Shown here: piece by piece, positions 10,868 through 50,089 of the stretch
How positions within the stretch are numbered: position 1 is the stretch's first letter
Layout of the letters: each line of letters begins with the position of its first letter
Source: Myxococcota bacterium
GTDB lineage: Bacteria > Myxococcota_A > Polyangia > Polyangiales > Sandaracinaceae
Reading direction: 5' to 3'
DNA: 64,000 bases
NCBI GenBank assembly: GCA_036149055.1
Contig: JAYZQJ010000017.1
Span: forward strand, 21,583-85,582
The notes under the pieces: generated by a model
The model's database searches: none
Told to the model about the DNA's origin: nothing
Seen by the model: only the letters and a program-made list of their open reading frames with translations
Program-made: the position numbers and the translations under genes

Positions 10868-10868
10868 G

Positions 10869-34022: not shown

Positions 34023-34137
34023 CGAAGCACGATGCAGCGTAAGCCCCGCGGACAGCAAGCGGCCAGGTCTCGATACGCCCGGTCCGGTCTGGGTGGCCGC
34101 CCGTCGTCGTCCTGAATGGCAGTGTCAGCGGTGGGCG

Positions 34138-35004
34138 CTACTCGAGCTCGTCGACGACGCGCAGCCCGGGCTCGCGGGTGAACCCGTCGGCGGTCCGGCG
34201 ACCGTGCAGCTCGAAGCGGGAGGTCACGCCGTCGCAGTCGAGGTCACCCTCTGCGCGGAGCACGAACGCGTCCCCGTCGACCTCGATCGAGTAGGCGTAG
34301 CGGACGGGATCCGCGAAGCCGATCCCGAGCGCCGCGAACGCGGGCGGCGCCGAGGCGGGCCACGCCAGGGTCTCACCGCACGGGATCGTCGCCGGCGTGC
34401 GCGGCGCGGCGCTCGGGAAGGTGCCGGTCCCCGTGACCTGCGTGTAGATCGCCTCGAGGTTCTGGCGCGCCTCCTCCGGCAGGCGCCGCTGCACGACGAT
34501 CGGCGCGAATCGGAGCGCGATCCATCCCAGAAACACGGTGCGCGCGAGCCCCGGCTGGTAGCCCTCGACCGACAGCTCGAGGCGGTGCTCGCCGTACCGA
34601 AAGTGCCCCGCCTCGTCGATCGAGATTCTCCGCCCGTCGAGCTCGAGCTGGCCGTCGACGAAGTGCATCGGCGCATCGTCTCCCGAGGACAGGATGACGC
34701 GGCCCTCCGAGGTCACCGACAAGAGCGGATCCCCCTCGTGGTCGACGACCTGGCTGTCGCCGCGAAGGGTCGCCGCGTGCTCGCCTCCCTCGAGGGTGAT
34801 CCGGCCGTCCGTGCCCAGCGCCCCGAGCGGCTCCCCGTTCTCGAGGTAACGCAGCGCGGGGTAGGAGCTCGTCTGCCCTGCGGCCGACGGGCCGTCGGAC
34901 GCGGCGCCGCCTCCAGGCGCCGAGGTCGCGTCACCTGCCGGCGGAGAGGAGGTCGCGCCGCACGCGCACAACAGGACCGCGAGCGAGATCGAGGCTCTAC
35001 GCAT
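34138..35004 (-). CDS. Lipoprotein with C-terminal type IV pilin-like globular domain
   Basis: LLCAC lipobox; EARQNLEAIY..YAYS..AEGDLDCDG resembles the deltaproteobacterial PilA head. Confidence 0.65.
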   Translation of the reverse strand: MRRASISLAVLLCACGATSSPPAGDATSAPGGGAASDGPSAAGQTSSYPALRYLENGEPLGALGTDGRITLEGGEHAATLRGDSQVVDHEGDPLLSVTSEGRVILSSGDDAPMHFVDGQLELDGRRISIDEAGHFRYGEHRLELSVEGYQPGLARTVFLGWIALRFAPIVVQRRLPEEARQNLEAIYTQVTGTGTFPSAAPRTPATIPCGETLAWPASAPPAFAALGIGFADPVRYAYSIEVDGDAFVLRAEGDLDCDGVTSRFELHGRRTADGFTREPGLRVVDELE

Positions 35005-35093
35005 CCCGCGGTGTAACAGCTCTCGGCGCCCGGCCGCCACCAGCACTCGCCCCGCACGTTCCGCCGAACTCTCGCTGAGCCCTGACGATCGGA

Positions 35094-35354
35094 TCATCCA
35101 TCTGCCCCGTGAGCTTCCTTCGAGCTCCCATGGGTTGGCGCAACTGCGACAAGCAGACTGACGAGACCAGCAAACAGAACCATAGGCGCTAGACAGTAGG
35201 CAAAGGCGAGTGCGACCAGCGTGGTCGTCGAGACGACGCCAGATGGAGCATCGTCTGCGACGCCTGCTGCCCCCTCGAAAACGGCGTATGCGGTCACAAA
35301 GAGAAGGGTAGCAACCCCCGCCGCCCCAGCCCTGCGATGCAAAGCTCTACTCAT
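35094..35354 (-). CDS. Small two-TM membrane protein
   Basis: 86 aa with two hydrophobic helices; lower GC. Confidence 0.5.
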   Translation of the reverse strand: MSRALHRRAGAAGVATLLFVTAYAVFEGAAGVADDAPSGVVSTTTLVALAFAYCLAPMVLFAGLVSLLVAVAPTHGSSKEAHGADG

Positions 35355-35369
35355 TCGACTGGCCCACTA

Positions 35370-35690
35370 TCACTCTACGCCGAGGGCGGTAATCTCGCCC
35401 TCTCCTATGACTCCTGACTCCCAGAGCGTGAATCGCATTCCGACCCTGACGTGTGCGAGCACCTCGTTCGAAGACAAGAACACGAGAGGCACATCAGAAG
35501 CGGTTTCACCCGGGAAGAGCGTCCGCTCATTGCGGCTCAACAAGAGACGACAGTCATAGCCGTGTGCAGAGAGTGCTGGCGAATCCTGGAAGAAGACCGG
35601 ACATGCGTAGTCCCCTCCGTTGCCAATCGGATGCTGCTTTCCACCCTGCTCCGGAGCCATCAGGCAAACTCTTGCTGTGACATACTTCAT
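35370..35690 (-). CDS. Stand-alone EF-Tu domain III-like protein
   Basis: ARVCL..EQGGKQHPI..Y..V.F..PGE..GMRFTLWESGVIGEGEI parallels the EF-Tu C-terminal barrel. Confidence 0.65.
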   Translation of the reverse strand: MKYVTARVCLMAPEQGGKQHPIGNGGDYACPVFFQDSPALSAHGYDCRLLLSRNERTLFPGETASDVPLVFLSSNEVLAHVRVGMRFTLWESGVIGEGEITALGVE

Positions 35691-35747
35691 CTTCGCCTCA
35701 ATGGCACCGGAGAGCTAGCTAGTATGGCCGCGGACCAGGAGCACCCA

Positions 35748-35770
35748 GGGCGGTTGCGCTGCGACTCGCG
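35748..35770 (+). repeat. Copy of the island repeat family
   Basis: GGAGCACCCAGGGCGGTTGCGC, similar to GGGCACCCGGGGCGGGTTGCGC at 47657. Confidence 0.55.
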
Positions 35771-35792
35771 GCGGAGGCTGGCGTGCAACGAA

Positions 35793-36116
35793 CTAGGCGA
35801 ACAGTGCTCGGTAGTGTTCCTGCTGCGACCCGACGAGAGACGGAACGGGCAGCCTGCACAGTCGGCGCAAGGTCTCGCCGTCGAGCTCCCACCATTCTTT
35901 CAGCTCACAGAGCGCGTTCAACTGCGCCTCCTGACATTCGACATCGTCCTCGCCGAGTCGCAGGGCCACCAGCAATCGTGTCACCAGAACCACCTGAGAT
36001 GAGGTCAGAGCGCGCGCGAGGTCGGTGATCTCGTCGGCGCCCCTCGAGCGCTCCCGACTCGCCGGGGAGAGCATCGCGCGAACAGTTTCCAAGAGCTCCT
36101 CACTGGCGACGGGCAC
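35793..36116 (-). CDS. Small helical (HEAT-like) hypothetical protein, immunity-like
   Basis: AGGAGG SD before GTG 36116; ERSRGADEITD..CQEAQLNALCEL. Confidence 0.6.
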   Translation of the reverse strand: MPVASEELLETVRAMLSPASRERSRGADEITDLARALTSSQVVLVTRLLVALRLGEDDVECQEAQLNALCELKEWWELDGETLRRLCRLPVPSLVGSQQEHYRALFA

Positions 36117-37776
36117 CGTTCTCCTCCTGGCCACGGCTGTCATTGGCGTTTGCGGATGCCGCAGCGTGGTGCGGGCTGCGCGGATTGCGAAACCGAGCTC
36201 CGCGTGCACCCGGGGGTTCCTCGCGCGTGCGACTCGGCTGGAGCGGCTCGACGGGGACTCGGCCCCAGAACCAGCGGCGCGCGTCGCGCTCGCCGCAGGG
36301 TCCAGGAACGGCGCGACGGACGAGCGCGCTTCCGTCCGACGCGAGCAGGAACGTGTCGCGCACGTCCGCTCGAACGCAGCGCTCGGACACCGTCCGCCGG
36401 AGCTCCCCGCCGCCGACCTCCGAAGGTCGCAGGCAGCCGGCCGGGCGGTCGCGGGGGATCGTGCGCCAGTCGCCGAGGCCGGCGTCCCAGCTGAGCGCTC
36501 GATCGGCCCAGACCAGCTGAGCCCAGAAGTCCTCCCCGTCCCCGCCCGCTTCGATGGTGTCCGCGCCACGCCGGGACCACCCGCGCGGGTCGGTCTCCTC
36601 CAGGAGAAGACGGTCCATCGGATCGAGGGCCGCGAGGTGCCCGTCGAGCGACGCGTCGGTGAGCGGCTCCAGCGTCCACGCGCGCGTCCCGTTCGCTCCG
36701 ACCGGTCGCGCCACCGCCAGGCTCCGGACCGGGTCGTCGGCGTCCGTCCGGTCTGCCGTCGCGTCACCGCAGCGCAGCAGGATCCACGCGCTGCGCAGCC
36801 CGATGAAGCGCACCTCGCATCGACCGGAGCCGAGCTGGACGGTCGACACTCCGCGGGTCTCGACGATGCGAAGCGACTCGCGGTCCCCGAGCACGCGCTC
36901 CCCTAGCACCAGGCCCCACTCGCGCGCCCAGCCTCGGCCGGCGGCCACTCGCTCTGCGACCCCACTCGCCGGGTGAAGGAGCAAGAGCGACCGAGGAGGG
37001 CCCTGGCAGCGGCGCAGCCCGCCGCACGAGTAGAGGATACTCGAGGCCTCTTGATGGGGAAGCTCGGCGAGCGTCCTCTCCGCAGCGCGATCGGCCAGGA
37101 TGTCCGCGACGACCCAGTCACCGACGAAGCGAACGCGGCTGATGAAGCCCTCGACCGGGATCGGCTCCGACGCACGCCGGGTCTCGGGCTCCCACACCCT
37201 CAGCGTGTGGCGGTCGGGGGTGAACGCGAGCCGTCCGCGAGGCCCGACCGAGGCCGCGTCGTACCCCGACCACAGGGCGCCGTGCGCCAGGACGGGGAGC
37301 GGCGTGGGCGCGGCACCGATGACCTCCGAGCGATCCTCGGACGCGTCCAGTCCGATGAGAGCGCCGCCCTCGACATAGTAGAGGTAGCGGCCGTCCGCGC
37401 TGCTACCCACGAGCACGTCGATCCGTCGCCCGGGCCCGACGCCGCGCACCAGATACGTGCCGAGCTCGTCACCGACCAGCTCCGCGGTGTGCCCGTTCGA
37501 GTACCAGCCGACGTGCACCCGCCCGTCGCCATCGGTGTCCTCTCGCGCCTCTCGCATGACCGCCCACCGAAGGTCCAGCGACGCAGCCACCGGCGCCCCA
37601 TCCCCAGCGCCGACCGGCGCCTCCCTCGGCTCGACCGCGTCGGACGAGACGCAGGCCGAGGTCCCCGGGCTCGCGACCCCCGGCGCCCCCACGCTCGCGC
37701 AGCCGGACCACAGGAGGACGAGCCCGAAGATCGGCGTTCGACGGACGCCCCTCGCCCGAGCGCTCGCTCGGGCCAT
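36100..37776 (-). CDS. Secreted/lipoprotein, beta-propeller-like
   Basis: LLWSGC lipobox; EDTDGDG; SADGRYLYY and GRLAF repeats; start uncertain. Confidence 0.6.
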   Translation of the reverse strand: MARASARARGVRRTPIFGLVLLWSGCASVGAPGVASPGTSACVSSDAVEPREAPVGAGDGAPVAASLDLRWAVMREAREDTDGDGRVHVGWYSNGHTAELVGDELGTYLVRGVGPGRRIDVLVGSSADGRYLYYVEGGALIGLDASEDRSEVIGAAPTPLPVLAHGALWSGYDAASVGPRGRLAFTPDRHTLRVWEPETRRASEPIPVEGFISRVRFVGDWVVADILADRAAERTLAELPHQEASSILYSCGGLRRCQGPPRSLLLLHPASGVAERVAAGRGWAREWGLVLGERVLGDRESLRIVETRGVSTVQLGSGRCEVRFIGLRSAWILLRCGDATADRTDADDPVRSLAVARPVGANGTRAWTLEPLTDASLDGHLAALDPMDRLLLEETDPRGWSRRGADTIEAGGDGEDFWAQLVWADRALSWDAGLGDWRTIPRDRPAGCLRPSEVGGGELRRTVSERCVRADVRDTFLLASDGSALVRRAVPGPCGERDARRWFWGRVPVEPLQPSRTREEPPGARGARFRNPRSPHHAAASANANDSRGQEENGARRQ

Positions 37777-37792
37777 CAGGAGCATCGGCCCG

Positions 37793-38023
37793 TCACTCGA
37801 AGTCCCACGGGATCTTCTCGCGGAAGACCGCGAGGGCCTGCTCCAGCAGCTCGAAGTCGAGCGACGCGAACTGGGAGACCGTGCGCGTCCTGGCGGTGTC
37901 GTCGCGGAAGATCTCGAGCACGAGCTCGCCGTCGGCGTAGATCTCCACCCCGATGCCGTCGCGACCGCTGACGTCGCTCGCGACGAGGCAGTCTTCGATC
38001 GGCGGGTAGCTCGCGTCACCCAT
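37793..38023 (-). CDS. Small acidic hypothetical protein (immunity-like)
   Basis: ASDV..RDG.GVEIY..LVLEIFRDD..IPWDFE; AGGA SD. Confidence 0.7.
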   Translation of the reverse strand: MGDASYPPIEDCLVASDVSGRDGIGVEIYADGELVLEIFRDDTARTRTVSQFASLDFELLEQALAVFREKIPWDFE

Positions 38024-38188
38024 GGCGTCCTGACCTTGCCTGATGAGGTGCTACTGGAGTTCGACATTCGTGCTGCTCTCGGCGCGACCGACTTGGGTAC
38101 ACTCGGATATGCACTCACCGCCGCCACGAACACAGCCTCTCACGACGGCTGTCGAAGCCCAACGTCCCCTCGACCCTTGCTCGCGGTG

Positions 38189-38644
38189 GTGAACGTGCCT
38201 GTTGAATCCGCTGAGGGCGTGTACGAGCGCGCTCGCGCCTACGTCGGTGCCCTCGGCTCTGTCTGGTGCCGACCGGCCGACTACGACGGCACGGACTCGG
38301 AGCTTCACCTGGCGGTTCGTAGCGCGTTCGGATGCGTTCTCGAGGTGGATGGCGCTGCCAGACTTCAGCCGCCGGAGTTCGTGTTCAAGATCGTCTTCTC
38401 CGGAGTTCGGCTTCTCCGAATCACGAACTGCTTTGGTGGCACCGGTACAGCGTCCCTCGTCAACGTGGAGGGGACCCATCTGAAGCGATTCTCGGTCCGA
38501 CCCGACTCCGGGGAGGCAGCCGTGATTGTCGAAGCCTCGCACTGCTTCCTCTCGGACCTCGATCCGAGGGACACGCGGCGAACTGGCGTCTGGTCTCCGC
38601 TACTCCTCGACGTCGAACGCGCTGCCGGCTCGCGTCGCACCTAG
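38189..38644 (+). CDS. Hypothetical protein
   Basis: Protein-like composition in the 3' part of the track ORF; start uncertain; opposite to the array orientation. Confidence 0.35.
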   Translation: MNVPVESAEGVYERARAYVGALGSVWCRPADYDGTDSELHLAVRSAFGCVLEVDGAARLQPPEFVFKIVFSGVRLLRITNCFGGTGTASLVNVEGTHLKRFSVRPDSGEAAVIVEASHCFLSDLDPRDTRRTGVWSPLLLDVERAAGSRRT

Positions 38645-38791
38645 CTCAGCGAGGGGGGCCTCACCGCGAGCTCGACAATCCGTCGGCTGCGCCTCGGCCG
38701 GCCACGCCGTCAGCGCGGAGACCAGCACCGTGACCAGGGCCAAACCTCGATCGTTTCGCAGGATGGTCACCGTTCACCCGGTGCGGCCGAG

Positions 38792-39409
38792 CTATCGAGC
38801 ATCGAAACCAAAATCGTCGGGGTATGGCTCGAACCGACCGGTCTCGAAGTACGGGTCTGGAGGTGCTGACAGAGCAGGCGGAAAGGCGGAGTGCAGGTCA
38901 CCTGCAACTCTCTGCATCACCGTACCACAGTCGTCGGAGACGACGGCCCGCATTCGACTATCCACTTGCCACATGAACGGCACCCAGCGACGCGAGCGGG
39001 GACTGAGGTACTGAAGCACCTGACCAGGGCAGGTACCGAACGGGCCGCTACGGAAAGGCACCGTGTAGTACCCCGGCCAGAGCCTGGTCGTGGCCCGAAG
39101 AAACCGGCCAGTACCGGCCAACTGCAACGTCACCTCCCCGCCGGAGACCAGGAGCGCGCTCGGGCCTTGCCATTCCGATTGTTCAGATACGAAGCCACAG
39201 GATCTCATGTGGCTCGCGTGCTGCTCCATCTCCGTTTCTGGGCAACTACCTCCCGCGGGAGCCCAGACCGCGTCGAGACTGACTCTGCTAGCGCCCGGGG
39301 GGTTCGCCCGCTCCTGGGTAGGTCGGCTCGGGGCACCGCACGCTGAGAGGTGCGAGCCCGCCACAACCGCGAGGACGGCTATCGCCAGGCTGTGATCGGA
39401 AATGACCAA
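38792..39409 (-). CDS. Hypothetical lipoprotein
   Basis: Hydrophobic N-terminus ending LSAC. Confidence 0.5.
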   Translation of the reverse strand: MVISDHSLAIAVLAVVAGSHLSACGAPSRPTQERANPPGASRVSLDAVWAPAGGSCPETEMEQHASHMRSCGFVSEQSEWQGPSALLVSGGEVTLQLAGTGRFLRATTRLWPGYYTVPFRSGPFGTCPGQVLQYLSPRSRRWVPFMWQVDSRMRAVVSDDCGTVMQRVAGDLHSAFPPALSAPPDPYFETGRFEPYPDDFGFDAR

Positions 39410-39444
39410 GCTGTCGTCCTCGAGCGCGGCAGGCGAGAAAAGGT

Positions 39445-40023
39445 CTACCAGAGAACGGCAACGACGTCTCCGCCCACCAACGAGAACTGGAGCGCCTGGT
39501 CCCTCGTGCCGATGCGTATTCGGCGGCGCTGCCCGCGGACCGAACGCAGGACCACCACGGCGAGGCCGTCAGGCCAAGCACCGTTCACGTAGACGATCGC
39601 ATCGTAGAGACTCGTGGTGTCACAGGGCAGGCAGAACCTCCGCCCTCCCTCTCTTCGAGCGACGGTGACAGAGGCACAGTGCGCTGTCTCCGTGCTGAGA
39701 TGTGCCCGCAGCCCGCATGAGCTCCAGTAATGGCGACCGCCTTGACAACCGACCCAGAGCACCGAGGCGAACACGATGAGGAGCACACGACGGAATCCCG
39801 AACCGCCGCTACCGACGAATGATGCTTGCACGCGCGAATCCGAGGGGCACCGACGAGCGAGGAACCAGCGCCGCCAGCGTGACCATGCGGTGGGCAGTAG
39901 CTCATCCATCCTCGTGGCCGGCGGGGACCCGTAGCCACACTCCGAAGCCTGGGCTGACGCTGCTCCAGGCACAGAGAGCGCGAGGGCCACCAAGAGCGAC
40001 AGGCAATACTGGACGAAGTTCAC
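39445..40023 (-). pseudogene. Possible chimeric ORF of two exported-protein fragments
   Basis: Signal-like VNFVQYCLSLLVALALSVPGAASAQ, then an internal second lipobox-like VLLIVFASVLWVGC. Confidence 0.3.
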
Positions 40024-40172
40024 AATGACCTTCCCCTCGGGAGGGTGAACCCGGACGCCCGCCGCCCTGCATGTTTGTCGCAGAGCATCATCATGCCTGA
40101 CGAGCCTTGCTGGCGATGTGGGCCGCGTGGAGACCCGCGCTTGGGTGGAGCTCGAATCCGCCGTCACTGCTC

Positions 40173-40766
40173 TCATCTCGCCCTCCTTCTGCGCCGCCGG
40201 CCACCTCGGCAGCACGCACCGAGCGTCACGATCACGAGCGAGAACGGCACGCCTTCGAAGGATCCGACCGGGCTCCCGACGGCTGAACAGGCGGCGCATG
40301 TTCGACTCGGGCTGCTGAGCTCGGGCCCGACATCCCGCCACTGTCGCAGGCGTCTCAGCGTAGGCTCGTAGTCGGCTGCTCCCTCGCGCACGTCATGATT
40401 GCAGAGGGAGACGTACGCGACCTCCCGATGGTACGCGAAGACGAGTGTGCGGCTTCCGACCATCGGGGCGTTCACCGGACACATCGAATGGTCGAAGCCC
40501 ACCGAGACGAGCTCGGCGGGGCGCCCCTTCAGGACCTCCTCGACTCGCGCCACGTACCAATCGGCGCCCGAGTCCGGGGGGTCTTCGTGCGGGCGAACGA
40601 GGACCACCCGGTAGATGAAGGTCGCCCCCGACCATGCTTCGCGAGCCGAGACGTGAGGGCAACTGCAAGCCTTGGCCGGGACCGAGACCAGGACGAGTCC
40701 AACGCACCCGACCAGGAAGATCACCCAGGAAGGCAGGCAGCTCACGCTCGGAGCGCTGGGGCGCAT
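40173..40766 (-). CDS. TIMP/NTR-like secreted protein with MYXO-CTERM-like tail
   Basis: Signal peptide then AKA-CSC; VEEVLKG; SMC; SLCN; C-terminal ACS..hydrophobic..RRRRRR. Confidence 0.65.
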   Translation of the reverse strand: MRPSAPSVSCLPSWVIFLVGCVGLVLVSVPAKACSCPHVSAREAWSGATFIYRVVLVRPHEDPPDSGADWYVARVEEVLKGRPAELVSVGFDHSMCPVNAPMVGSRTLVFAYHREVAYVSLCNHDVREGAADYEPTLRRLRQWRDVGPELSSPSRTCAACSAVGSPVGSFEGVPFSLVIVTLGACCRGGRRRRRRAR

Positions 40767-40894
40767 CGGGAACCTCGCCATCCGATCCCATCTTACACGG
40801 AGCTCGCGCCGCATCGCGCACCGTCACATGTGCGGGCGTCCCTGCCTCGGATCTTCCGATGGTTCGCGCCGCCGAGTGTTCTCGGTCGACCCGG

Positions 40895-42402
40895 CTACGG
40901 ATACGCGGGGGCTCCGGCGAGGAGTCGATCGATCCCGTCCAGGTTCCCGAGTCCGCTCACGCATTCAGCGTAGGCGTCGAGCTTCCGCCGCCAGGCGCCC
41001 GGCGACACGCCAACCACTCTGTCGCCGATCACGCGCTTCCCGCGCTCGGGGCACCGCACGGAGGCCGCCGCGATGGCCAGGGCGTGGGGGTGGTCATTCT
41101 GGATGAGCGCCCGGAGACAGAGCAGGGCGTCGTGCTCGACGACCTTTCGCAGGTAGGCGTCCGAGGAGTCCTGGGTCCGCATCAGACGCAGCTCGGAGGT
41201 GTCGCCGAGGACCTCCTGAATCTCGTGCCGCGTCGCCGCGGTGGGAGGTTCCAGCTCTCGCGCCTCGTGCCGCACCCGAGCCAGCGCGGCTGCGAGCACG
41301 AGCAGCGAGACGCCACGGCTCTCGAGATCGGCGCACACGATGGACGCCGCGGTGTCGAGGTGCGCCAGCTCGCCGAGCCACGTGCGCGCGGTCGATCGTA
41401 CCCACTCCAGGCACGTCGGGACGACCTGGGCTGCGAGCGCGATGCTGTCGGGCGCGGTCACGCGCTCGAGCACGGCCCAGTCTATCGCCCCCACGGCACA
41501 TTCCCCGTCGCCGAGGCTCTCGGGGAGGCAGTGACTCCAGGCCGCCGTCAGCAGGGAGCTCTGCACGCACCGCTCGCCGGCACGGAGCAAGCTGGCATGC
41601 GCGTCCCATGCGTTTCCGCTCGCGAGGTGGCGCGCCAGGGCGTCCCAGGTCAGCCCCAGCCCCGAGAGCATCAGGTCCGCCACCGGCGGTCCCTCCTGCT
41701 GCACGAAGGCCGCGCACTCCAGACCGACGGAGAGCCAACGCAGGCGTTCCTCGACCAGGGAAGCCCGCGCGAGATGGAGCGCGAGCGCGCCAGCCTCTAC
41801 GGCCAGCGCGCCCACGCCGTCGCGCGGACTGTCGCCGAGCGACAAGGGGCTCTTGCCCGAGATCGCTCGGCAGACTTCGGACTGGCGAGTGGCTTCGAGC
41901 GCGCCGAACAGATCCTCGAACGAAGGGACGTCGCGCTCCGCCGAGAAGCGCTGCTCGAGCAGCGACGTGGCCGCTGCGACGAACCGGCTCTCGTACCGCG
42001 GCACCGCGTCGCAGAGCACGGGGAAGACGTCGCAGCGCGTGGGGAAGCGCCTCGAGCGAGAGCCGCCCGCGACCCACCAATCAGCCCAGTCTCTCCAGAT
42101 GTTCTCGTTCATGAGCGGCACTTCGAGGAGGCGAGGGATCAGGTCCCCGCGAGAACTGCGGCGTTCAACCGCGCTCGCGTCGCCTCGAGCAGCGGCGCCA
42201 GCACCTGACAGGTGATGGCCCCGCCGCTTCGCACCGCCCGGAAGTACGGGAGAATCCATCCATCGGCGGCCTCGACGAGGCTCAGATAGTCGGACGGCAC
42301 GCTCGTTCCGAACGCGCGCACGATCTCCGCGTCGTCGACCGTCGCGCGGTGGGCGGAGGCTCGCGGCGGCACCAGCGCGACGAGTCGGTCCAGCGCGACC
42401 AT
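40895..42402 (-). pseudogene. SUKH/SMI1-KNR4-like N-terminus (42139-42402) probably frameshifted into a long helical ORF (40895-~42145)
   Basis: LDRLVALVPP..FGTSVPSDYLSLVE is an SMI1-like pattern; the two ORFs overlap in different frames. Confidence 0.45.
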
Positions 42403-42465
42403 GCGCGCTGGCTCCTCATCACGGGGGTCGATGGGGGAAGCGAAGGGGACGTCACGGGTCGAAGA

Positions 42466-43260
42466 CTACTCCACGCGGGTAGGCGAAGTGCCGGCGGCGA
42501 ACGAAGACAGCGCATCCCCGACCTGCGAGACGTGGATCAGCCACTGCTCCCGCCCGGCCGACTCTACCCGCAACGTGGCGCCGTCCCCGACTGACCTGAG
42601 GGTCAGGACGGCCCGACGATAGTTCTCGGCTTCGAGCCAGCAGCCCTCCTCGAGCACGACTCGCTCGGCGAAGCCTGTCGCGAATCCCAGATCCGAAGCG
42701 ATACGACGTCCCGCAGGGTGGGTGGCTTCTCCGTCGCGGGCGAGGCCCCGGACCTTCAAAGTCGGAAAGATCTCGCGCGAGCACGGCCTCTTCATGGAGG
42801 GCGCATTGTGCGCGAACCATCGACCCGCCAATCGGAGATCGTCGAACGCCCAGGTCTCCGACTCGTGGACGGGCACCAGCCTCCACGCTCGCTCGAGCGG
42901 ATACTCCGCGAACATGAAGTGACTACCCCAGAACAGGCAGAGGAGGCGCCCGTGGATGCCACAGACGGGCTCCAACCCCACTCGACTGGTAGCCACCAAC
43001 GCCCGCTGAGCGCCGTCCACCTCGTCCATCACGGACTCCGCCACGTCGAAGTCGATGGCGTCCATCCACGCGTCCTCACCCGCGACGCTTCCGAACACTA
43101 CGATCCCGCCGGAACACCAGAGGAACCGGTAGCGCAGGCCCCCATCAGCAGTCAGCGAGCTGAGCTGACGAGGCAAGACTTCGACCGACTCCCCATAGCT
43201 ACGCAGCACCTCGGCCACACGGCTGACTTCGTCCAGGCTCACACCCTCATCTCCGGCCAA
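42466..43260 (-). CDS. Hypothetical protein
   Basis: 264 aa ORF with TTG start 15 bp after the upstream stop. Confidence 0.5.
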   Translation of the reverse strand: MAGDEGVSLDEVSRVAEVLRSYGESVEVLPRQLSSLTADGGLRYRFLWCSGGIVVFGSVAGEDAWMDAIDFDVAESVMDEVDGAQRALVATSRVGLEPVCGIHGRLLCLFWGSHFMFAEYPLERAWRLVPVHESETWAFDDLRLAGRWFAHNAPSMKRPCSREIFPTLKVRGLARDGEATHPAGRRIASDLGFATGFAERVVLEEGCWLEAENYRRAVLTLRSVGDGATLRVESAGREQWLIHVSQVGDALSSFAAGTSPTRVE

Positions 43261-43274
43261 GCGCCACGAATATT

Positions 43275-43574
43275 CTACGAGCAGTCATCTCCAGCCAGTC
43301 GACCCTGGAGCTGCTCGAGGCGCCGTTGAAACCGTAGCTCGGCTTCGGCGACACCCATCGATGCTCCATCCCCGAAGATCTCGCAGGCGAAGATGATGCT
43401 CGTGAAGTCGCGGGCGGTGAGTTGGAAAGCCCGCGAGAACCAGTGCATCACGATTCCGCGACTGTACTTCGAAGCCGCCTCCCTCTCGTGAACCAAGTCT
43501 ACCATCTCAATCATTGTGGCGCCTCCGTGCGCAGCTGCGCGAAGAGCGTCCACAAGAGGTTCAGCGTCGCTCAT
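43275..43574 (-). CDS. Small helical hypothetical protein (immunity-like)
   Basis: MSDAEPLVDALR..HWFSRAFQL; AGGTGG SD-like sequence. Confidence 0.6.
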   Translation of the reverse strand: MSDAEPLVDALRAAAHGGATMIEMVDLVHEREAASKYSRGIVMHWFSRAFQLTARDFTSIIFACEIFGDGASMGVAEAELRFQRRLEQLQGRLAGDDCS

Positions 43575-43923
43575 CTGCCCCCCACCTGAACGCTGATGCA
43601 TACCCGCGCTCCCCGGCAATTCTGAGGCCCTCCACTCTCCCGAGGCGCAGACGCAACGCCACTCGTACCGCGAAGACTTGTCGGGCTAGGTGAGCCACAC
43701 TCATCCCTCCCAAACCACGCGAATCCAGGAACGGAAGGCTGCCGTTCTCCGGGGGCTCGACTCGTGCGGTTGTGTTCCCATGCTCGAGCGTACTCCGCTT
43801 CCCGGAAGCGTGTCGTCAGGCGTGGTCTCTAGCAAACCATCAGGCGCCCCGTGGACCTGCAGCGCCCGCTCGCCGAGCTCGCGGTGCTCTCCGTCCCCGC
43901 CCCGGGGTCGCGGGCGCGCCGCT

Positions 43924-44481
43924 TCAGTCCTCTTCGACGGAGCTCAGCCACGCTCGGAGGGCCTCGGGAGGGTTCAGCCTCCGGAGTCGCGGGGTGTTCG
44001 AGCCGTCGGGAGGGACGACCTCGACGCTCACCACGACGTCGTTGCGACGCTCGCCTCGACCGAACATGCCGTCGCGGTCGAGCCGGGCCATGGCGCGCTC
44101 CAGGCGGCCGAGTCTCAGCTCGGCCTCTCGCTCCAGTTCCTCCTCCGTTCTGAACCCGTGAAGAGGCGGCCTACGCGCCAGCAGCTCGTGTACGGCGCGA
44201 AAGTGATCCGCGCCGAAGTCACAGTAGGGCGAGTCTGCGTAGCTCCAGCGCAGCATGTCCCGCTCCTCCGCGTCGGCGTGAGCTGCCGCGAGCGCTTCTT
44301 CGGACCACGCCGAGAGCATGGGCGCCACGACATGGCCGTCCACGACCAGCGCACAGTAGTAGAAGCGCTCGGCCGGGTGCTCCCGGAACAGCTGCGAGAA
44401 CGCCCCCGTCGCGGCCGAGTAGATGGCGCTCTCGAGCTCCTCCACCGACGGGGGTGGCCCGGCTGGCTTCGAAAACGCCAT
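43924..44481 (-). CDS. DUF4303-like protein
   Basis: AFSQL..ERFYYCAL..WSEEAL..LRWSYADSPY..AMARLDRDGMFG..RLNP; start at 44481 inferred. Confidence 0.75.
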   Translation of the reverse strand: MAFSKPAGPPPSVEELESAIYSAATGAFSQLFREHPAERFYYCALVVDGHVVAPMLSAWSEEALAAAHADAEERDMLRWSYADSPYCDFGADHFRAVHELLARRPPLHGFRTEEELEREAELRLGRLERAMARLDRDGMFGRGERRNDVVVSVEVVPPDGSNTPRLRRLNPPEALRAWLSSVEED

Positions 44482-44880
44482 ACTACCCAAGTCAAAAAGC
44501 AGATCTGGATAGCTCGACCTCCAGACCACGGCAGCGCCGTATTCCGGATGCGCCTTCAAGCGGACAGCGACCTCCAGCGCGGTGTCGATGCTCCCGATCG
44601 CCGTCTCCATCGCCTCCAGCAGGTCGGTGGTGGGCGACGCCAGCGGCTTCCACGACGCATGGGGCTTCTTCTTCGAGACGGGCACGAACCGCGCCGCGGA
44701 GCCGGTCTGGAGTCGCTCCTCGGCGAAGCGGGCCTGTTCACGCGTGATCAACGAAGTCCTCCCGGTCGAGCGCAAGCGAGATGGAGGTCATACATGCGCG
44801 GCCGCGCAGGTGCTACTCAGCCCGCTGCGGGACACGCCGTCAGTCGGCGAGTCGGCGCCCGCCTCCCCGGCCCCGCCGCG

Positions 44881-44955
44881 GTGACCGCGCCGAGCATGCA
44901 GGCGCGGGGGACGTACGCGCTGACCACCCGGTGCACCTTCGGTGGCACTGGGACG
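44881..44955 (+). mobile_element. Putative N-terminal remnant of a RAYT/Y1 transposase ending at a repeat core
   Basis: VTAPSMQARGTYALTTRCTF resembles the RAYT N-terminal PR..G.TY.LT.RC; followed directly by GCACTGGGACG (44945-44955). Confidence 0.45.
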
Positions 44956-45147
44956 TGGCTCCATGCGAGCGCGTAGCGACCGCGAGACGCACCGGCCCGT
45001 GAACACCGTGGCCATCGTCAGTAGGCCGCGCGAAGCTCGGAGGATAGGCAACTATCGGGCACCCCATCAGACCGTGCATGGGTCAGCGAAGCCAGCCGAA
45101 GTGGATGAGCCGACGTGCTCGAACCGCGAGGCGGAGCCGTCATTCCC

Positions 45148-46041
45148 TCATGACCGGCCCTCGGGCGGAGGATACCGCTCCTGCAACAGTCCTCGAAGCT
45201 TGTCCACGAGCGTATCGAGCAGCTCCGCGCTCTGATTGAGGGTGCGGACCGCGTCGTTCCGCTGCTCCCCCAAGGCTATCCCCTCGACCTGATACTGCCG
45301 ACCATCGAACTCGACGAGACCAAGGCGCTGGCCTACCTCGAACGCATCGGAACCGCGATTGATCCCTCCATCAAATAGCAGATCGAAGTCGGCGTCGCGC
45401 CCACTTGGACCCACGCGACTCTTACGTAGCTGGGCGCGAACCCGATGTCCGATGCTCGAATCCCCATGTTTGATCAGGCCCAACTTACGGATACGAATGT
45501 CCAGCGACGCGAGATAGTGCAAGGTCTCACCACCAAAGGTGCATTCCGAGCTACCGAACATGACCCCCTCCCTCGGATAGGTCTGATTGGTGCAGAGCAG
45601 AACCGCATTCGCCTTGGCGACGAGCGGAACCAACTGCCGGAGTCCGGACCGAATCAACAGCTCGACAGGGTCTTGCGAGTTCGAAGCCGGCTCCGGCGGT
45701 AGCAGCTGAGCGACGGAATCGATGACCAAGACGGTGGGTTCGAGAGCACGCAAGCTAGACGCCACCTGTGCGAGTGCAGCCTCTCCGTTCTCTGGGCGGA
45801 TGATGTCCAGCTCGGACGTGTCGACGCCACGCTGCTCCGCCATCCGGAGGTCGAGCGCGTGGTCGGCATCCACCCAGACGGCTTTGCCGCCGCACGCCTG
45901 CGCCTCCGCCACCACGTGCAGCGCCACAGATGTCTTTCCGGCACCTGGCTCGCCGTAGAGGTGCACGAGAGCTCCCCTCGGGAATCCCGCGACGCCGGTC
46001 AACTCATCCAACATGAGGATTCCTGTCGAGACCACGCTCAT
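45148..46041 (-). CDS. Divergent RecA paralogue lacking the N-terminal domain
   Basis: GGAGGTGG SD; STG..LD..G.GFPRG, GEPGAGKT, DADHALD, PENGE, VIDSVA, TNQ, GVMFG..GG; RecA-type C-terminal domain. Confidence 0.85.
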   Translation of the reverse strand: MSVVSTGILMLDELTGVAGFPRGALVHLYGEPGAGKTSVALHVVAEAQACGGKAVWVDADHALDLRMAEQRGVDTSELDIIRPENGEAALAQVASSLRALEPTVLVIDSVAQLLPPEPASNSQDPVELLIRSGLRQLVPLVAKANAVLLCTNQTYPREGVMFGSSECTFGGETLHYLASLDIRIRKLGLIKHGDSSIGHRVRAQLRKSRVGPSGRDADFDLLFDGGINRGSDAFEVGQRLGLVEFDGRQYQVEGIALGEQRNDAVRTLNQSAELLDTLVDKLRGLLQERYPPPEGRS

Positions 46042-46149
46042 GGACCACCTCCCGTGAGCGCGGTTCTTAGCACGCCAGGGGCGCGGACGGCGCCTGAGTC
46101 GAAACGCCTGCTCGAGGCCGTGCCACCCCTCGCCTCAGCGCCGCCTCGC

Positions 46150-46383
46150 CGACCGGAGAGCACGCTCGCGGCGACGCGCTACCCAAGTTGAGAGGATAGG
46201 CGCGATGAGCGCCCTTCTCCGCTGGAGACGCACTTCTCCTTTAACGAGGCCCGCTGAAGGAGACCGCTCGACACGGAACAACGCGTTGATGAGCGCGAGC
46301 GCCTCACGAGCCCGCTCGCGCTCCGAGCTCATCGCCTCGAAGAAGTACCTCCGCGCGTGCGCCCAGCAGTTGACCTCGGTGAG
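46150..46383 (-). mobile_element. IS66 transposase (TnpC) internal remnant
   Basis: EVNCWAHARRYFFEA..AREALALINALFRVER is the IS66 signature. Confidence 0.8.
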
Positions 46384-46565
46384 CGGCAGCAGCAACAACA
46401 ACCGAGGCGGCGGAGGCGGTAGCGGCTCCGACGCGGGCGGCGGCTCTGGACAGCCGGGCAACACGCTCGAGAACAGCGGAGGCGGGGGCGGCGGCGCAGG
46501 TCGCATTCGGGTGAACAGCCTCGCAGGGTCGGGCGCGCTCAGCGGCGCCACGGTCACCGGCACGC
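46384..46565 (+). pseudogene. Fragment of a Gly-rich secreted-protein C-terminus
   Basis: NSGGGGGGAGRIRVN motif without a proper 5' end; fused to the antisense IS66 fragment. Confidence 0.45.
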
Positions 46566-46626
46566 AGCGAAGGCGCGATCACCCTCGGCGAACCATGAGA
46601 ATCGAGATGCGCCTCACGCTCGACCT

Positions 46627-46740
46627 CGAGGTCCGAAAATGAAGGGGCGGCGCGGCGGAGCACCTGGGACGGAATACGCGAAGCGCGGGGAGACGGAATA
46701 CGCGAAGCGCGGCCACCCGGGACGGAAAGCGCGGGCGCGG
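46627..46740 (+). repeat. Island repeat cluster 1
   Basis: GCGGCGGAGCACCTGGGACGGAATACGCGAAGCGCGGG with a tandem partial copy and CACCCGGGACGGAAAGCGCG; direct repeat of 47579-47667. Confidence 0.9.
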
Positions 46741-47406
46741 CGGGCGCACGCGAAGGAGCGGAGGTGGCCCGTGCTCGGGGCGGCGCGACTGGTGAAGCAG
46801 CACTCGTGGGCAGAGCCCGCCTCACCGAGGAAGTGGGAGCCGGGGCCGATCCCGAGCTTTCGAGTGATCGACGACCCCGAGCACGACGCGCACTGCCGGA
46901 TGGAGGTGCTGGGCTTCCGCGGGGATTACGCGGAGGCCCGAGAGGCGCGGCTTCGCGGCGAGAACGTCGTGTGGCCGGCGGGCACGTACCTGATGAAGGT
47001 GCAGCACGGCGTCGAGGTGGCGGCGCCAGATCGCGAGTCGGTGCTCGCGGCGGACGACGTGTACGAGGAGCTGCCGGCGCGGCTCGGTGCGGAGGAGTGC
47101 CGGGCGATCAGCGAGCGACTTCGCGAGCTCTGCGTGCGCGTGGACCCGGAGCAGCAGGAGGACGCGCTCGGTGCGCGGATCGACGCCGGGGCCGAGAACG
47201 AGGTCACGCGGCGTGAGTCGCGGCGGGTTGAGACCGGCGGAGAGGAGACGCCGGCGCGACTCGTGACCTTGCGCGGCAACCTGAGGGTGCGGGAGCCCGA
47301 GACGGTGGGAGAGCCGCCGGACGTCCAGACCGGCGAGGACACGAGCGTGGCCCCGCGCGACGAGCGGGATGACGACGAGCCTCCCGACCAAACCGGCGAC
47401 AAGTAA
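46741..47406 (+). mobile_element. C-terminal remnant of a RAYT-like (Y1/HUH) transposase
   Basis: VLGAARLVKQ..P..FRGDYAEAREARLRGENVVWPAGTYLMK resembles myxobacterial RAYT C-termini; no HUH core present. Confidence 0.6.
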
Positions 47407-47411
47407 GCTCG

Positions 47412-47440
47412 GCGCGGCTCGGTGACGGCTCGAGCCGCGC
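47412..47440. terminator. GC-rich hairpin after the transposase-remnant stop
   Basis: Perfect 10-bp inverted repeat GCGCGGCTCG/CGAGCCGCGC; no U-tract. Confidence 0.4.
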
Positions 47441-47578
47441 ACAGCTGCGTCCGCCGTAGGGGTCGGCTGCGACGGATCCGCTGGCTACGTACGGACCGGC
47501 GGCAGTAGGCTGCGGGGTGCGGCCGAAGTGACGTCCGCCGGTGGCCAACGCCGCCGAGAGCTCGCTGTCCCGTCGCCG

Positions 47579-47751
47579 CGAGGTCCGCCGAAGGGCCGTT
47601 GCGGCGGAGCACCTGGGACGGAATGCGCGAAGCGCGGGCGGAATGCGCGAAGCGCGGGGCACCCGGGGCGGGTTGCGCCTCGCGCGGGGCGGAGGCGGCG
47701 GACGGCGGCGCGGGCCAGGAGCGGCCTGGGGCGGTTTGCGCCTGGCGCGGG
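47579..47751 (+). repeat. Island repeat cluster 2
   Basis: GCGGCGGAGCACCTGGGACGGAATGCGCGAAGCGCGGG with a tandem partial copy, plus variants at 47657 and 47721. Confidence 0.9.
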
Positions 47752-47757
47752 AGAGTC

Positions 47758-48315
47758 CTAGCGCCAGTCCGGTATGGTCGACGCGCCGCCGAAGGTCCCC
47801 CCGGCAACGCCGAACGATGCCCCACCACCGTTGATCGCAGCGTGCCGCACTCCAGATTCCGACGCCTCGAATCTGGCGAAGCACGCACCTCCGTCGTCCG
47901 GCATCACCCCCACGAACCACGCGTCCCATGCAACGCAGTGGAACTGCAGGACGACCACGTCCGCGAGAACTCTATAGTGGCGAAAGTAGCGAGCATAGTG
48001 AGCGGCCACCAAAGCCCACTCCGAGCCAGCTTCAGAACCCAAAAACCGCTCAACAGATCTCTCCGCATCGCGCAGCCGTGACGGGACGGATACCGGATCA
48101 ACACCAGGTGCAATTTCCACCACGCCGAGCCAAGAGTTCCAAGCTACAAACAGCCCCGGCGTCGTGCCATCAAGTTGATGCCTGAAGAACCGCGGCTGAA
48201 CACTTTGATCTACAGCGGCAACGCTGGCGCATGACGAGCGCCTCCTCTCGGCCGAGCCGGTGCAGGCGCAGGCGAAAGCGAGTAGGGCGACAACGATCCA
48301 CCTGCGTCCGTCCAA
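47758..48315 (-). CDS. Hypothetical lipoprotein
   Basis: RRWIVVALLAFACAC lipobox; lower GC; start inferred. Confidence 0.5.
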   Translation of the reverse strand: MDGRRWIVVALLAFACACTGSAERRRSSCASVAAVDQSVQPRFFRHQLDGTTPGLFVAWNSWLGVVEIAPGVDPVSVPSRLRDAERSVERFLGSEAGSEWALVAAHYARYFRHYRVLADVVVLQFHCVAWDAWFVGVMPDDGGACFARFEASESGVRHAAINGGGASFGVAGGTFGGASTIPDWR

Positions 48316-48367
48316 ATGGCGCGAGCACTTCAATGAAGAACTAGCGCCGATCAAGGGCGTGGGAAGG

Positions 48368-48685
48368 CTACTGCGCTGTAAGGAAGGTCTGTGCATCATC
48401 GAACTCAGCCGAATCGAACTCTCTATCGAGTTGAGTATTGCTTGTCCCCGAAGGGTCCCCCAGTTCGGTGTGAGGAGTAGGCAAGTATTCGCCCCAATGG
48501 TCAACGTGAAGCTGGTGCCACGGATCTCGCAGGTCATTCTCCGAGACCACGAGAGGGTCAGGGTGTTCTCGCGTGCCGATAGTGTAGGCTTCGTTGAGCG
48601 AGCTGACTTCGTCGGTTACTGCGGAACCGATCCACATCCCGGGGCGGACAGCAACACCGCGAAAGCGCTGGTCTACGTGGGACAT
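48368..48685 (-). CDS. Small hypothetical protein
   Basis: MSHVDQRF..RPGMWIG; start sits just after repeat cluster 3 in transcription order. Confidence 0.4.
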   Translation of the reverse strand: MSHVDQRFRGVAVRPGMWIGSAVTDEVSSLNEAYTIGTREHPDPLVVSENDLRDPWHQLHVDHWGEYLPTPHTELGDPSGTSNTQLDREFDSAEFDDAQTFLTAQ

Positions 48686-48724
48686 CTCGTGTCCCTGCAG
48701 CAGTTCGTTCGGTATCTGGCGGAA

Positions 48725-48855
48725 GCTGGGCAGGGGAGCACCCGGGACGGAAAGCGCGGCGCGGGGGACGAGTTCGCGCTGATCCGTCGCCGCCGCGGCG
48801 GCGGGAGGGGCTGGGCAGGGGAGCACCCGGACGGAAAGCGCGAGCGCGGGAGGGG
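48725..48855 (+). repeat. Island repeat cluster 3
   Basis: GCTGGGCAGGGGAGCACCCGG(G)ACGGAAAGCGCG(A)GCGCGGG at 48725 and 48810. Confidence 0.9.
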
Positions 48856-48873
48856 AAACGCGCGGACGATCGA

Positions 48874-49200
48874 TCACCTCCCCTGTGGCGAGGTACTACC
48901 CGCACCAATGGGAATGTCCTCGGCCCAGTAGCGGTGGAGCCACTCGGTGAGGCTGTCTTCAGCGAACCCTGCCGCAAGCACCTCGTGACGCGCTGGAAGC
49001 TCGACGTAGCCCACCGCAAAGTCCGACAGGGTTAGGACTTGGTCTAGCGTATGGCCCGGGGGAGTCGAACATGCGACGCCACAACATGGCGCGAAGAAGA
49101 AGAACTCACCCGACCGCATCTTCAGCGGAAACACCGGACCGTAGTCGATCGGGCAATCCGCGACCTGATACAGCATGCGTTGATCGATCGTCGACTCCAC
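48874..49200 (-). CDS. Small hypothetical protein with Cys motifs
   Basis: AGGAGG SD; CPID..FFAPCCG. Confidence 0.65.
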   Translation of the reverse strand: MESTIDQRMLYQVADCPIDYGPVFPLKMRSGEFFFFAPCCGVACSTPPGHTLDQVLTLSDFAVGYVELPARHEVLAAGFAEDSLTEWLHRYWAEDIPIGAGSTSPQGR

Positions 49201-49579
49201 CCGTTCCTCCTGGATGCGAAGCCCTCATTGAGCTCCGCGTAGTCCCATTCTCATCTGCGAATACGGCCAGGGTTCCACCCGGCGGACGATAGTCGAGCAA
49301 CCGGCGGACGCCCCCGGGTCGCAGGCCTCGTGAATCTCCGTTCCAATGCTCGACGAGACTGCTGCCAACCAGGTCGACCGTTCGGCTACCTCTACCCGCC
49401 AGCTCCACCGCATGAGGAGCAAACCCTCGGAGCCCGGCCGGTGCCCCGAGCTCACCCGCACCGGCGTCGCCCAGGAGTGGAGGGTCCTCCTGGGCCCTGT
49501 CGAGCCCGATCCACAGCGCAGCGACAGCGAGCACCAGTAGCGAGCCAAGGGTCGCACTCCACCTGCGAGCCCGTCTCAT
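49106..49579 (-). CDS. Hypothetical membrane-anchored protein, possibly truncated
   Basis: N-terminal TM helix; 3' end overlaps the next gene by ~95 bp. Confidence 0.35.
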   Translation of the reverse strand: MRRARRWSATLGSLLVLAVAALWIGLDRAQEDPPLLGDAGAGELGAPAGLRGFAPHAVELAGRGSRTVDLVGSSLVEHWNGDSRGLRPGGVRRLLDYRPPGGTLAVFADENGTTRSSMRASHPGGTGGVDDRSTHAVSGRGLPDRLRSGVSAEDAVG

Positions 49580-49632
49580 CTCCGCAGAAGCTACCACTGC
49601 CACGGGCGTTCAAGCGCGGTCACGCTGCAGAT

Positions 49633-50085: not shown

Positions 50086-50089
50086 GGGC

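What the first reader, a model, noticed from the sequence alone, without database searches (positions are those of the whole stretch)
35748..48855. Co-oriented hairpin repeat family punctuating an orphan-gene array: candidate RAYT/REP-driven, integron-like cassette system
Seen: about 10 copies or variants of GAGCACCYGGGRCGG(AA/TT)..GCGCG(A)AGCGCGG at 35748, 44945 (core only), 46658, 46692, 46714, 47607, 47639, 47657, 47721, 48736 and 48821. All are on the + strand, in intergenic or junction positions, while the neighbouring cargo genes are on the - strand. I saw none outside the island. Several carry GCGAAGC. Established: d(GCGAAGC) forms an exceptionally stable ssDNA mini-hairpin, and HUH/Y1 transposases (IS200/605, RAYTs) recognise ssDNA hairpins. 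Inference: the repeats are recombination or insertion sites through which foreign genes were captured one at a time, like attC sites but served by a Y1 enzyme. Many cassette junctions lack a visible copy, so the model is only partly supported.
Basis: partly seen in the sequence, partly recalled or inferred. Interest (0 to 1): 0.82.

Follow-up and report, generated by a model that had tools for sequence, protein, structure and literature searches.

The report
Transposase end-copies bordering foreign genes
The repeats are same-facing copies of the tail end of a little-studied single-strand-DNA transposase element of myxobacteria; the enzyme likely cuts at this end and joins it to unrelated DNA, which would explain why some, but only a minority, of the foreign-gene junctions in this island carry a copy.

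Summary
The repeat family is real: 9 of the 11 listed copies are confirmed, all on the + strand; 35748 is degenerate and 44945 is unsupported. It is not a free-standing cassette site. It is the last ~35 nt of the right end of a ~410-aa HUH-Y1 (RAYT-like) element that is intact elsewhere in this genome and broken here: a 3' half at 46729-47406 and a 57-nt start from another copy at 44878. The 25-kb island is absent from the same site in four relatives. Across the order these elements carry one-sided stuttered end repeats (36 of 52 loci). In this genus, end copies also border low-GC genes, often 3-8 nt from a convergent stop codon. Only 4 of ~22 island junctions carry a copy, most strain breakpoints lie elsewhere, and no integron integrase or attC boxes were found. 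Intact genes share an upstream motif with comM, radC and comEA. Best reading (0.5): one-ended Y1 cut-and-join, possibly during DNA uptake; untested. The scan noted similar end arrays on other DNA before. New variant of a known kind.

The parts
25257..50089 (.). ~25-kb variable island between a TPR gene (24234-25256) and an RluA-family gene (50090-50770)
   Evidence: In G001 the two flanks are 21 nt apart (C44:14920/14942); they are also adjacent in G002, G003 and G010
35739..35771 (+). Degenerate end copy between genes 35370-35690 (-) and 35793-~36128 (-)
43924..44751 (-). DUF4303 gene (island cargo, no repeat at its ends)
   Evidence: PF14136 E 1.5e-37
44878..44934 (+). 57-nt start of a RAYT-like gene, without its upstream motif
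   Evidence: 98% identical to the start of the intact gene on C215; no promoter-motif hit in 25001-51000
45148..46041 (-). Divergent recA-like gene, 63% GC
   Evidence: PF00154; 38% and 34% identical to two other recA-family loci in the genome; not found at E<1e-75 in 300 other genomes
46135..46641 (-). IS66 transposase fragment; 46178-46500 is missing in other strains
   Evidence: PF03050 E 1.4e-11; joint 46177/46501 in 5 of 7 distinct runs laid
46641..46745 (+). End-derived cluster of three units fused directly to RAYT coding sequence
   Evidence: strain variants carry a different end copy and other DNA after 46641
46729..47406 (+). 3' half (from about residue 205-213) of a RAYT-like gene; the HUH and catalytic Tyr region is absent
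   Evidence: 51% aa identity to intact C215 paralogue; 57-61% to four 426-429 aa proteins; in run X8 a contig has 301 further bases before 46757 whose end reads like RAYT coding sequence
47412..47440 (+). Conserved hairpin just after the stop codon, first landmark of the right end
   Evidence: Found after 13 RAYT 3' ends in G000; 11-bp stem, 2 pairs with two-sided changes in 15 sequences
47606..47750 (+). Native terminal repeat of the right end plus three stutter copies
   Evidence: Same position (~150-200 nt after the hairpin) as terminal motifs of paralogues; 8-nt insertion at 47638 in X2, X12, X18
47758..48330 (-). Orphan lipoprotein-like gene, 63% GC; stop codon 7 nt from the repeat end
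   Evidence: only homologue in 301 genomes is C28:7522-8070 (35% identity), ~500 nt from another end array
48368..48685 (-). Orphan ORF, 57% GC; starts ~40 nt before the next end copy
   Evidence: no family hit
48725..48866 (+). Distal end copies of a second subtype: short unit, ~85-nt unit, partial tail
   Evidence: 92% identical over 83 nt to a right end at G001:C12; left matches of 11 and 52 nt to that native end
48874..49200 (-). Orphan ORF, 61% GC; stop 8 nt after the last partial unit (24 nt after the last full unit)
   Evidence: Atlas hits all under 0.9

Best explanation
The repeats are copies of the last ~35 bases of the right end of a long myxobacterial HUH-Y1 (RAYT-like) element, and the enzyme, likely supplied from intact copies elsewhere in the genome, likely nicks single-stranded DNA at the outer edge of this end and joins it to unrelated DNA. 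Shown: identity of the repeat as the element end; the HUH-Y1 signature and predicted fold of the enzyme; one-sided, co-oriented stutters; distal copies that share the outer boundary but start at variable points (mostly 9-23 nt before the core, sometimes 50-100 nt, sometimes inside the RAYT gene); strain-level turnover. Inferred: such one-ended joining, completed at the other end by microhomology or host recombination, would give stutters, end-to-gene-interior fusions and end-bordered blocks of foreign DNA. Adjacent deletion plus selection would then trim the flank to just after a functional stop codon. Inferred further: the enzyme is likely made together with DNA-uptake genes, so incoming single-stranded DNA would be a substrate. 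The result is opportunistic capture and reshuffling inside an already variable island, not an ordered one-gene-per-site cassette system.
For: Element anatomy is repeated in 13 right ends in G000 and in G001. H59, H61 and Y124 are invariant in 42 proteins; the model has pLDDT 84.7 and its top Foldseek hit is TnpA-REP 4er8, E 6e-5. 36 of 52 loci have a repeated motif 60-520 nt after the stop; 1 of the 36 has inverted copies upstream. Similarity between copies at different loci most often ends 32-36 nt after the core start (9 of 30 copies; 2 run on to 54 through a shared stutter, 19 stop earlier). End-to-RAYT-interior fusions occur here (46745), at G001:C67 and at G001:C12. A convergent stop lies within 12 nt of 5 of 15 model-defined array ends, against 4.4% of random island positions (p 3e-4). 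Stutter copy number differs between near-identical strains at 4 loci (L099, L101, L105, L108). At 46641, 5 of 7 runs have another end copy, followed in X8 by ~2.4 kb of other DNA. The C215 element plus a convergent passenger gene is a 2.35-kb insertion relative to G001, G002, G004 and G010. The upstream motif is shared with comM, radC and a comEA-like gene in G000 and G010, comM and radC in G001, and radC in G018. E. coli TnpA-REP cleaves and strand-transfers ssDNA (PMC8266576, passages); its gene is reported up-regulated on competence induction (cited in PMC5581495, passage).
Against: No cleavage site, circle or strand transfer was observed; contigs cannot show them. Only 4 of ~22 island junctions carry a copy. 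Breakpoints at 38645/40163, 42421/42478, 46177/46501, ~43580-43725 and 32795 are not at repeats. Most elements have no distal copies or foreign flank: 1 of 10 G000 stutter arrays has atypical DNA downstream, and 4 of 16 G001 right-end loci have distal copies. Downstream GC is only slightly lower than upstream (0.670 vs 0.684; 25 of 40 loci; p 0.013, kin not independent). No consensus structure was found for the terminal ~90 nt in 15 ends. The 46633-46641 overlap seen in X12 fits plain recombination between two end copies. The promoter role of the shared motif is a prediction, and it was found before only 18 of 45 genes.
Confidence: 0.5

Rival explanations
1. The ends follow the cargo: short end copies are REP-like non-autonomous units that the Y1 enzyme inserts just after stop codons in islands that were built by other means (toxin-immunity module swapping, illegitimate recombination). 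They mark junctions but did not create them.
For: Left ends also sit 8-12 nt after stop codons in 3 of 4 near-identical copies of one subfamily. Distal copies start 9-23 nt before the core in most cases, as a defined mini-unit would. Flanking genes at C28 and G001:C12 are SMI1/KNR4 immunity genes or Rhs modules. Most breakpoints lack repeats.
Against: Copies are not dispersed: 11 hits on 2 contigs. RAYT genes are themselves cut and fused to foreign DNA or to end copies (window; G001:C49, C67, C13). An element plus passenger gene fills an empty site.
Confidence: 0.25
2. Passive debris: several elements landed in a hot-spot island; replication slippage made the stutters and host recombination between end copies made the fusions, with no enzyme action after the first insertion.
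For: The window's RAYT is broken and its two fragments come from different subfamilies. Stutters are 20-64 nt GC-rich tandem units. The 9-nt overlap at 46633-46641 fits recombination.
Against: Slippage would not confine stutters to the same position after the gene in unrelated end sequences (36 of 52 loci), nor place short copies 0.4-5 kb away in the same orientation with non-homologous left joints.
Confidence: 0.17
3. One reading: the repeats are attC-like sites and single genes are excised and integrated as cassettes by a Y1 enzyme.
For: A few blocks are tightly bracketed: 47758-48685 here, and a single 233-aa ORF at G001:C67 between copies at 5862 and 6626. The site lies right after the stop codon on the gene's strand in several cases.
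Against: 4 of ~22 junctions; the brackets of a block differ in sequence; no precise repeat-to-repeat single-gene indel in 7 runs; blocks include gene fragments (IS66, IstB, RAYT halves); no attC boxes or integrase.
Confidence: 0.08

Closest known systems
TnpA-Y1 subclass 2.1 (= Group 1 RAYT; Quentin 2018 PMC6006769, parts 2-5 of 10 read; Bertels 2017 PMC5581495, passages)
   Same: NH-u-H motif, Tyr ~61-63 residues later, Y-x-x-x-NP in the family consensus, TnpA-REP fold, several divergent copies per genome, no canonical REPs, deltaproteobacterial hosts
   Different: ~410-450 aa against a median of 238; QP instead of NP in this genus; no Pfam hit; conserved post-stop hairpin and one-sided stuttered terminal repeat, which the sections read do not describe. 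Placement was by motifs, not by a tree.
TIRtrons / TIRYTs (Di Nocera 2013, PMC3733652, passages)
   Same: RAYT-like gene with an element-specific end sequence that can form clusters
   Different: No inverted copy at the left end in 35 of 36 loci with a motif; copies are direct and 3'-sided
REPtrons (TnpA-REP with GTAG REPs; PMC8266576, passages)
   Same: Same fold; each enzyme subfamily has its own repeat; local amplification recalls BIME formation (recalled)
   Different: No GTAG-footed palindrome as the repeat, no inverted pairs, no genome-wide spread (11 hits on 2 contigs)
IS91-family one-ended transposition (PMC13181058, passages); ISCR elements (recalled)
   Same: Works-like comparison: HUH enzyme, two unlike ends, one fixed end joined to variable adjacent DNA
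   Different: Different enzyme family; no target tetranucleotide or circles shown; units here are often only 35-100 nt
Integrons (attC cassettes; features recalled)
   Same: Co-oriented orphan genes with a site just after some stop codons
   Different: No integrase, no attC boxes, sites at a minority of junctions

Membership tests
TnpA-Y1 class 2 (RAYT-like) | HuH motif and catalytic Tyr | tested here: met
   H59, H61, Y124 invariant in 42 intact relatives; absent from the window's fragments
TnpA-Y1 class 2 (RAYT-like) | TnpA-REP/IS200 fold | tested here: met
   Predicted model of the G001:C39 protein; top hits 4er8, IS608 and ISDra2 TnpA
TnpA-Y1 class 2 (RAYT-like) | Y-x-x-x-NP signature | tested here: inconclusive
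   NP in the 42-sequence consensus; QP or QV in the 9 proteins of this genus
TnpA-Y1 class 2 (RAYT-like) | Curated profile cut-off | tested here: not met
   NF047646 33.6 bits vs cut-off 80; no Pfam hit for 4 intact proteins
TnpA-Y1 subclass 2.1 | Phylogenetic placement and C-terminal HTH or 2.1.1 tail | not tested
   No tree with reference subclasses was built; no HTH family hit
REPtron | GTAG-footed palindromic REPs on both sides of the gene | tested here: not met
   Repeat is a direct, 3'-only motif that folds no better than shuffles; a GTAG holding the stop codon lies ~5 nt before the single post-stop hairpin in some copies
REPtron | Many dispersed REP copies in the genome | tested here: not met
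   11 hits on 2 of 289 contigs
TIRtron | Terminal inverted repeats | tested here: not met
   Inverted upstream copies in 1 of 36 loci (L164), none in this genus
Integron | IntI integrase | tested here: not met
   TIGR02249 best 87.7 bits vs cut-off 265, on other contigs
Integron | attC with RYYYAAC/GTTRRRY boxes after each gene | tested here: not met
   0 box pairs in 25256-50090; no Rfam match
IS91/ISCR | IS91-type transposase | tested here: not met
   No Pfam family hit; fold and weak profile hit point to TnpA-REP
IS91/ISCR | Fixed ori end with variable other end | tested here: inconclusive
   Outer boundary at +32 to +36 in 9 of 30 copies; left starts variable
IS91/ISCR | ssDNA circular intermediates and tetranucleotide target | not testable with these tools
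   Only contigs were available

The most novel reading that the evidence does not exclude
A competence-induced HUH-Y1 'end-joiner': when these predatory myxobacteria take up DNA, the enzyme ligates incoming foreign single-stranded DNA to its chromosomal end motif, giving a homology-independent route for acquiring whole orphan and immunity genes. The element would then be a domesticated gene-capture device rather than a plain parasite.
Probability: 0.2. Interest if true: 0.85.

Novelty: new variant of a known kind. Interest (0 to 1): 0.5.

Why it matters
No activity for the second-largest class of Y1 enzymes (subclass 2.1 / Group 1 RAYT) is described in the papers I read, and what RAYTs do for their hosts is called largely unknown there (PMC6006769, PMC5581495). 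This family, found in 111 of 251 genomes of the order, offers a defined ~35-nt substrate, a predicted cut edge and a predicted inducing condition, so the question becomes directly testable. If one-ended joining of foreign DNA is confirmed, it would be a route of gene gain in predatory bacteria that is distinct from integrons, REPINs and IS91 capture.

Tried and rejected
PF01797 search of the genome found 9 other Y1 loci and missed this family. Seven of them have a different flanking repeat; two share only the upstream motif. Single short motifs (four families, 59-221 hits each) showed no link to atypical DNA genome-wide: 3-12 hits with atypical DNA downstream, about the 5% expected. First idea that one RAYT was split by cargo: rejected, because the stub is 98% like C215 while the 3' half is closest to another subfamily. 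First reading of the 46641/48801 joint as a clean repeat-to-repeat deletion: rejected, because in X8 it is a 30-nt match to an end copy followed by other DNA. CRISPR-like duplication of the repeat around each block: not supported, because brackets differ. Conserved long hairpin for the terminal 90 nt: not found. Orientation to replication by local GC skew: 32 of 52 negative, not pursued. First downstream gene convergent in 31 of 48 loci, p 0.06, crude gene calls. Hand-set array ends gave 13 of 22 within 27 nt of a convergent stop; set after seeing the sequences, so only the model-defined count is used. CTAG enrichment in the island (0.86 vs 0.12 per kb) may reflect foreign composition only. 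Cargo function: no PADLOC or PHROG hit beyond the recA-like gene and one weak hit. The search for related loci in genome contigs gave 1 distant locus. RNA run X18 covers parts of the region but contigs cannot show transcription. Literature: 7 searches; 'REP-associated tyrosine transposase' with 'myxobacteria' returned 0 papers. Supplements were not opened; those of PMC6006769 and PMC3733652 may list relatives. Rows dropped before counts: one duplicate locus and three fragment hits; one search also dropped one fragment and loci with under 350 nt upstream.
Full report
Setting. The window is G000:C17:21583-85582 of a 9.9-Mb, GC-rich genome. A 59% identical homologue of the transposase fragment is labelled Sandaracinaceae by its source, which points to a myxobacterium. 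In the congeneric G001 the TPR gene ending at window 25256 and the RluA-family gene starting at 50090 are 21 nt apart; the flanks are also adjacent in G002, G003 and G010. So 25257-50089 is a ~25-kb insertion. Its right part (35-50 kb) is compositionally atypical and holds about 22 mostly orphan genes, nearly all on -.

Observation. Nine of the 11 listed copies are real and lie in three clusters on +; 35748 is degenerate and 44945 is unsupported. The unit is a GAGCACCYGGG core, a short linker, a GCGC-N3-GCGC mini-stem and a GCGCGG end. The loop varies, GCGAAGC occurs 4515 times in the genome, and the 36-nt units fold no better than shuffles. Elsewhere in the genome the model finds only two hits, both on C28.

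What the repeat is. 46729-47406 encodes the C-terminal half of a protein with intact ~410-aa paralogues on C215, C268, C7, C128, C195 and C74. In 42 relatives H59, H61 and Y124 are invariant. The predicted structure (pLDDT 84.7) matches TnpA-REP and IS608/ISDra2 TnpA. NF047646 hits below its cut-off and Pfam gives nothing. The family was found in 111 of 251 genomes of the order, G000 and the unpublished G023 included. The gene is followed by a conserved hairpin (13 such ends in G000; two pairs with two-sided changes), ~150-200 variable bases, and a subfamily-specific terminal motif that is usually stuttered. 47606-47750 is that native terminal array. The clusters at 46657 and 48735 are displaced copies; 48766-48850 is 92% identical to a G001 right end. 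The 57-nt stub at 44878 is 98% identical to the start of the C215 gene and comes from a different subfamily than the 3' half. No catalytic domain is left in the window.

Pattern in relatives. Of 52 loci, 36 have a repeated motif 60-520 nt after the stop and 16 have none by this exact-word test; inverted upstream copies occur in one. In G001, 4 of 16 right-end loci (C67, C22, C12, C96) have further co-oriented copies 0.4-5 kb downstream, bordering lower-GC DNA; C49 shows a RAYT gene cut by foreign DNA that ends at an end copy. The other 12 have none in the DNA held, some of it short. End copies fused to the interior of a RAYT gene occur in the window, at C67 and at C12. Copies share their outer boundary most often at +32 to +36 (9 of 30; 19 stop earlier, 2 run on) and start at variable points, most distal ones 9-23 nt before the core. 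A convergent stop codon lies within 12 nt of 5 of 15 model-defined array ends against 4.4% of random island positions. Adjacent genes include SMI1/KNR4 immunity genes and Rhs modules. The gene at 47758 has its only homologue among 301 genomes at C28, ~500 nt from an end array. The C215 element and a convergent passenger gene fill a site that is empty in four relatives, with a degenerate ~20-nt duplication. Against a general capture role: only 1 of 10 stutter arrays in G000 has atypical DNA downstream, and the GC drop downstream is small.

Strain variation. Contigs from seven runs (seven studies) were laid. At repeats: after 46641, five runs carry another end copy, followed in X8 by ~2.4 kb not in the window; X12 also has a contig that begins at 46633, which suggests loss of a block between two end copies, though the two contigs were not shown to share a chromosome; X8 has more RAYT-like sequence before 46757; three runs have 8 extra bases at 47638; X2 breaks at 35565 and 35792. 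Not at repeats: 38645/40163 (all four runs), 42421/42478, 46177/46501, ~43580-43725 and 32795. Near-identical strain contigs differ in stutter number at four loci. No allele gained or lost exactly one gene plus one repeat.

Regulation. A ~100-nt motif precedes 19 places in G000: RAYT-like genes of this and a second family, three rpn/yhgA genes, comM, radC, a comEA-like gene and two unnamed genes. It precedes comM, radC, comEA-like and rpn genes in G010, comM and radC in G001 and radC in G018, and 18 of 45 family genes against 0 of 42 control stretches. It contains a sigma-54-like -24/-12 pattern (consensus recalled). comEA, comM and radC are named as competence genes in PMC12378983 (passages). 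PMC5581495 (passage) cites a report, not seen by me, that the E. coli RAYT gene is induced with competence. The window has no copy of the motif.

Mechanism. HUH-Y1 enzymes nick ssDNA, hold the 5' end on a tyrosine and transfer it to a 3'-OH (PMC8266576, passages). An enzyme that binds its right end and nicks at the outer edge would, acting in trans, give stutters, short displaced copies, end-to-interior fusions and one-ended joints to foreign DNA; deletion and selection would bring the joint close to a stop codon. This resembles one-ended transposition of IS91 (PMC13181058, passages) in outcome, not in family. All enzymatic steps are inferred (0.5). Rivals: ends inserted after the cargo arrived (0.25), passive debris (0.17), true cassettes (0.08).

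Comparison and verdict. The enzyme fits TnpA-Y1 class 2, nearest subclass 2.1 by motifs (PMC6006769, parts 2-5 read), but the element fails the defining tests for REPtrons, TIRtrons (PMC3733652, passages) and integrons. Seven literature searches found no description of this one-sided myxobacterial family; the library is partial and supplements were not read. The scan has noted comparable end arrays for other Y1 families on other DNA, none on this sequence. Verdict: real feature, correctly tied to a RAYT-like enzyme, over-read as an integron-like system; new variant of a known kind; interest 0.5.

Noticed in passing
G000 C275:3072-3170, C275:31697-31792, C232:14725-14824, C167, C204, C33; G010 loci L193, L202, L205, L208: A ~100-nt promoter-like motif shared by RAYT-like genes, rpn/yhgA genes, comM, radC and a comEA-like gene: a candidate competence regulon in these myxobacteria
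   Followed up: partly
L083 (G000:C28) 846-890 and 6860-6885; L084 ~2790-2820; L188 (G000:C9:~30589): A second short motif (core CTGGTTCGGGTCTCG) lies beside end copies in both genomes and once alone before low-GC DNA; its source element was not found
   Followed up: partly
window 45148-46041: Divergent, short recA-like gene with only one 76% relative outside its own cluster and ~39% identity to ordinary RecA
   Followed up: partly
L085 (G001:C12) 10200-16000 and L086 (G001:C96) 680-9700: End copies bracket or abut Rhs toxin-immunity modules and orphan SMI1/KNR4 genes
   Followed up: partly
L001-L007 (G000 C132, C4, C83, C116, C198, C143, C29): A second Y1 family (PF01797-positive) flanked by many inverted copies of a different short repeat
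   Followed up: no
L093 against G000:C72:4317-6230: An element in a related strain is flanked by the same 1.9-kb region in permuted order: a tandem duplication around the element or a circle
   Followed up: no
L100 6691-6848; G000 C128:1-191, C150, C30: A ~160-nt mobile repeat present upstream of a RAYT gene in one strain and absent in G000
   Followed up: no
L164 (G139:C1): The one locus with inverted end arrays upstream as well as downstream of the gene
   Followed up: no
window 33188-33209: Four other strains have small indels here relative to the window, suggesting that the ankyrin gene (32841-33430) is frameshifted in this assembly
   Followed up: no
L141, L142 (G025:C20); L143 (G066:C3): Three RAYT-like genes in tandem, 5-8 kb apart, with lower-GC DNA between them
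   Followed up: partly
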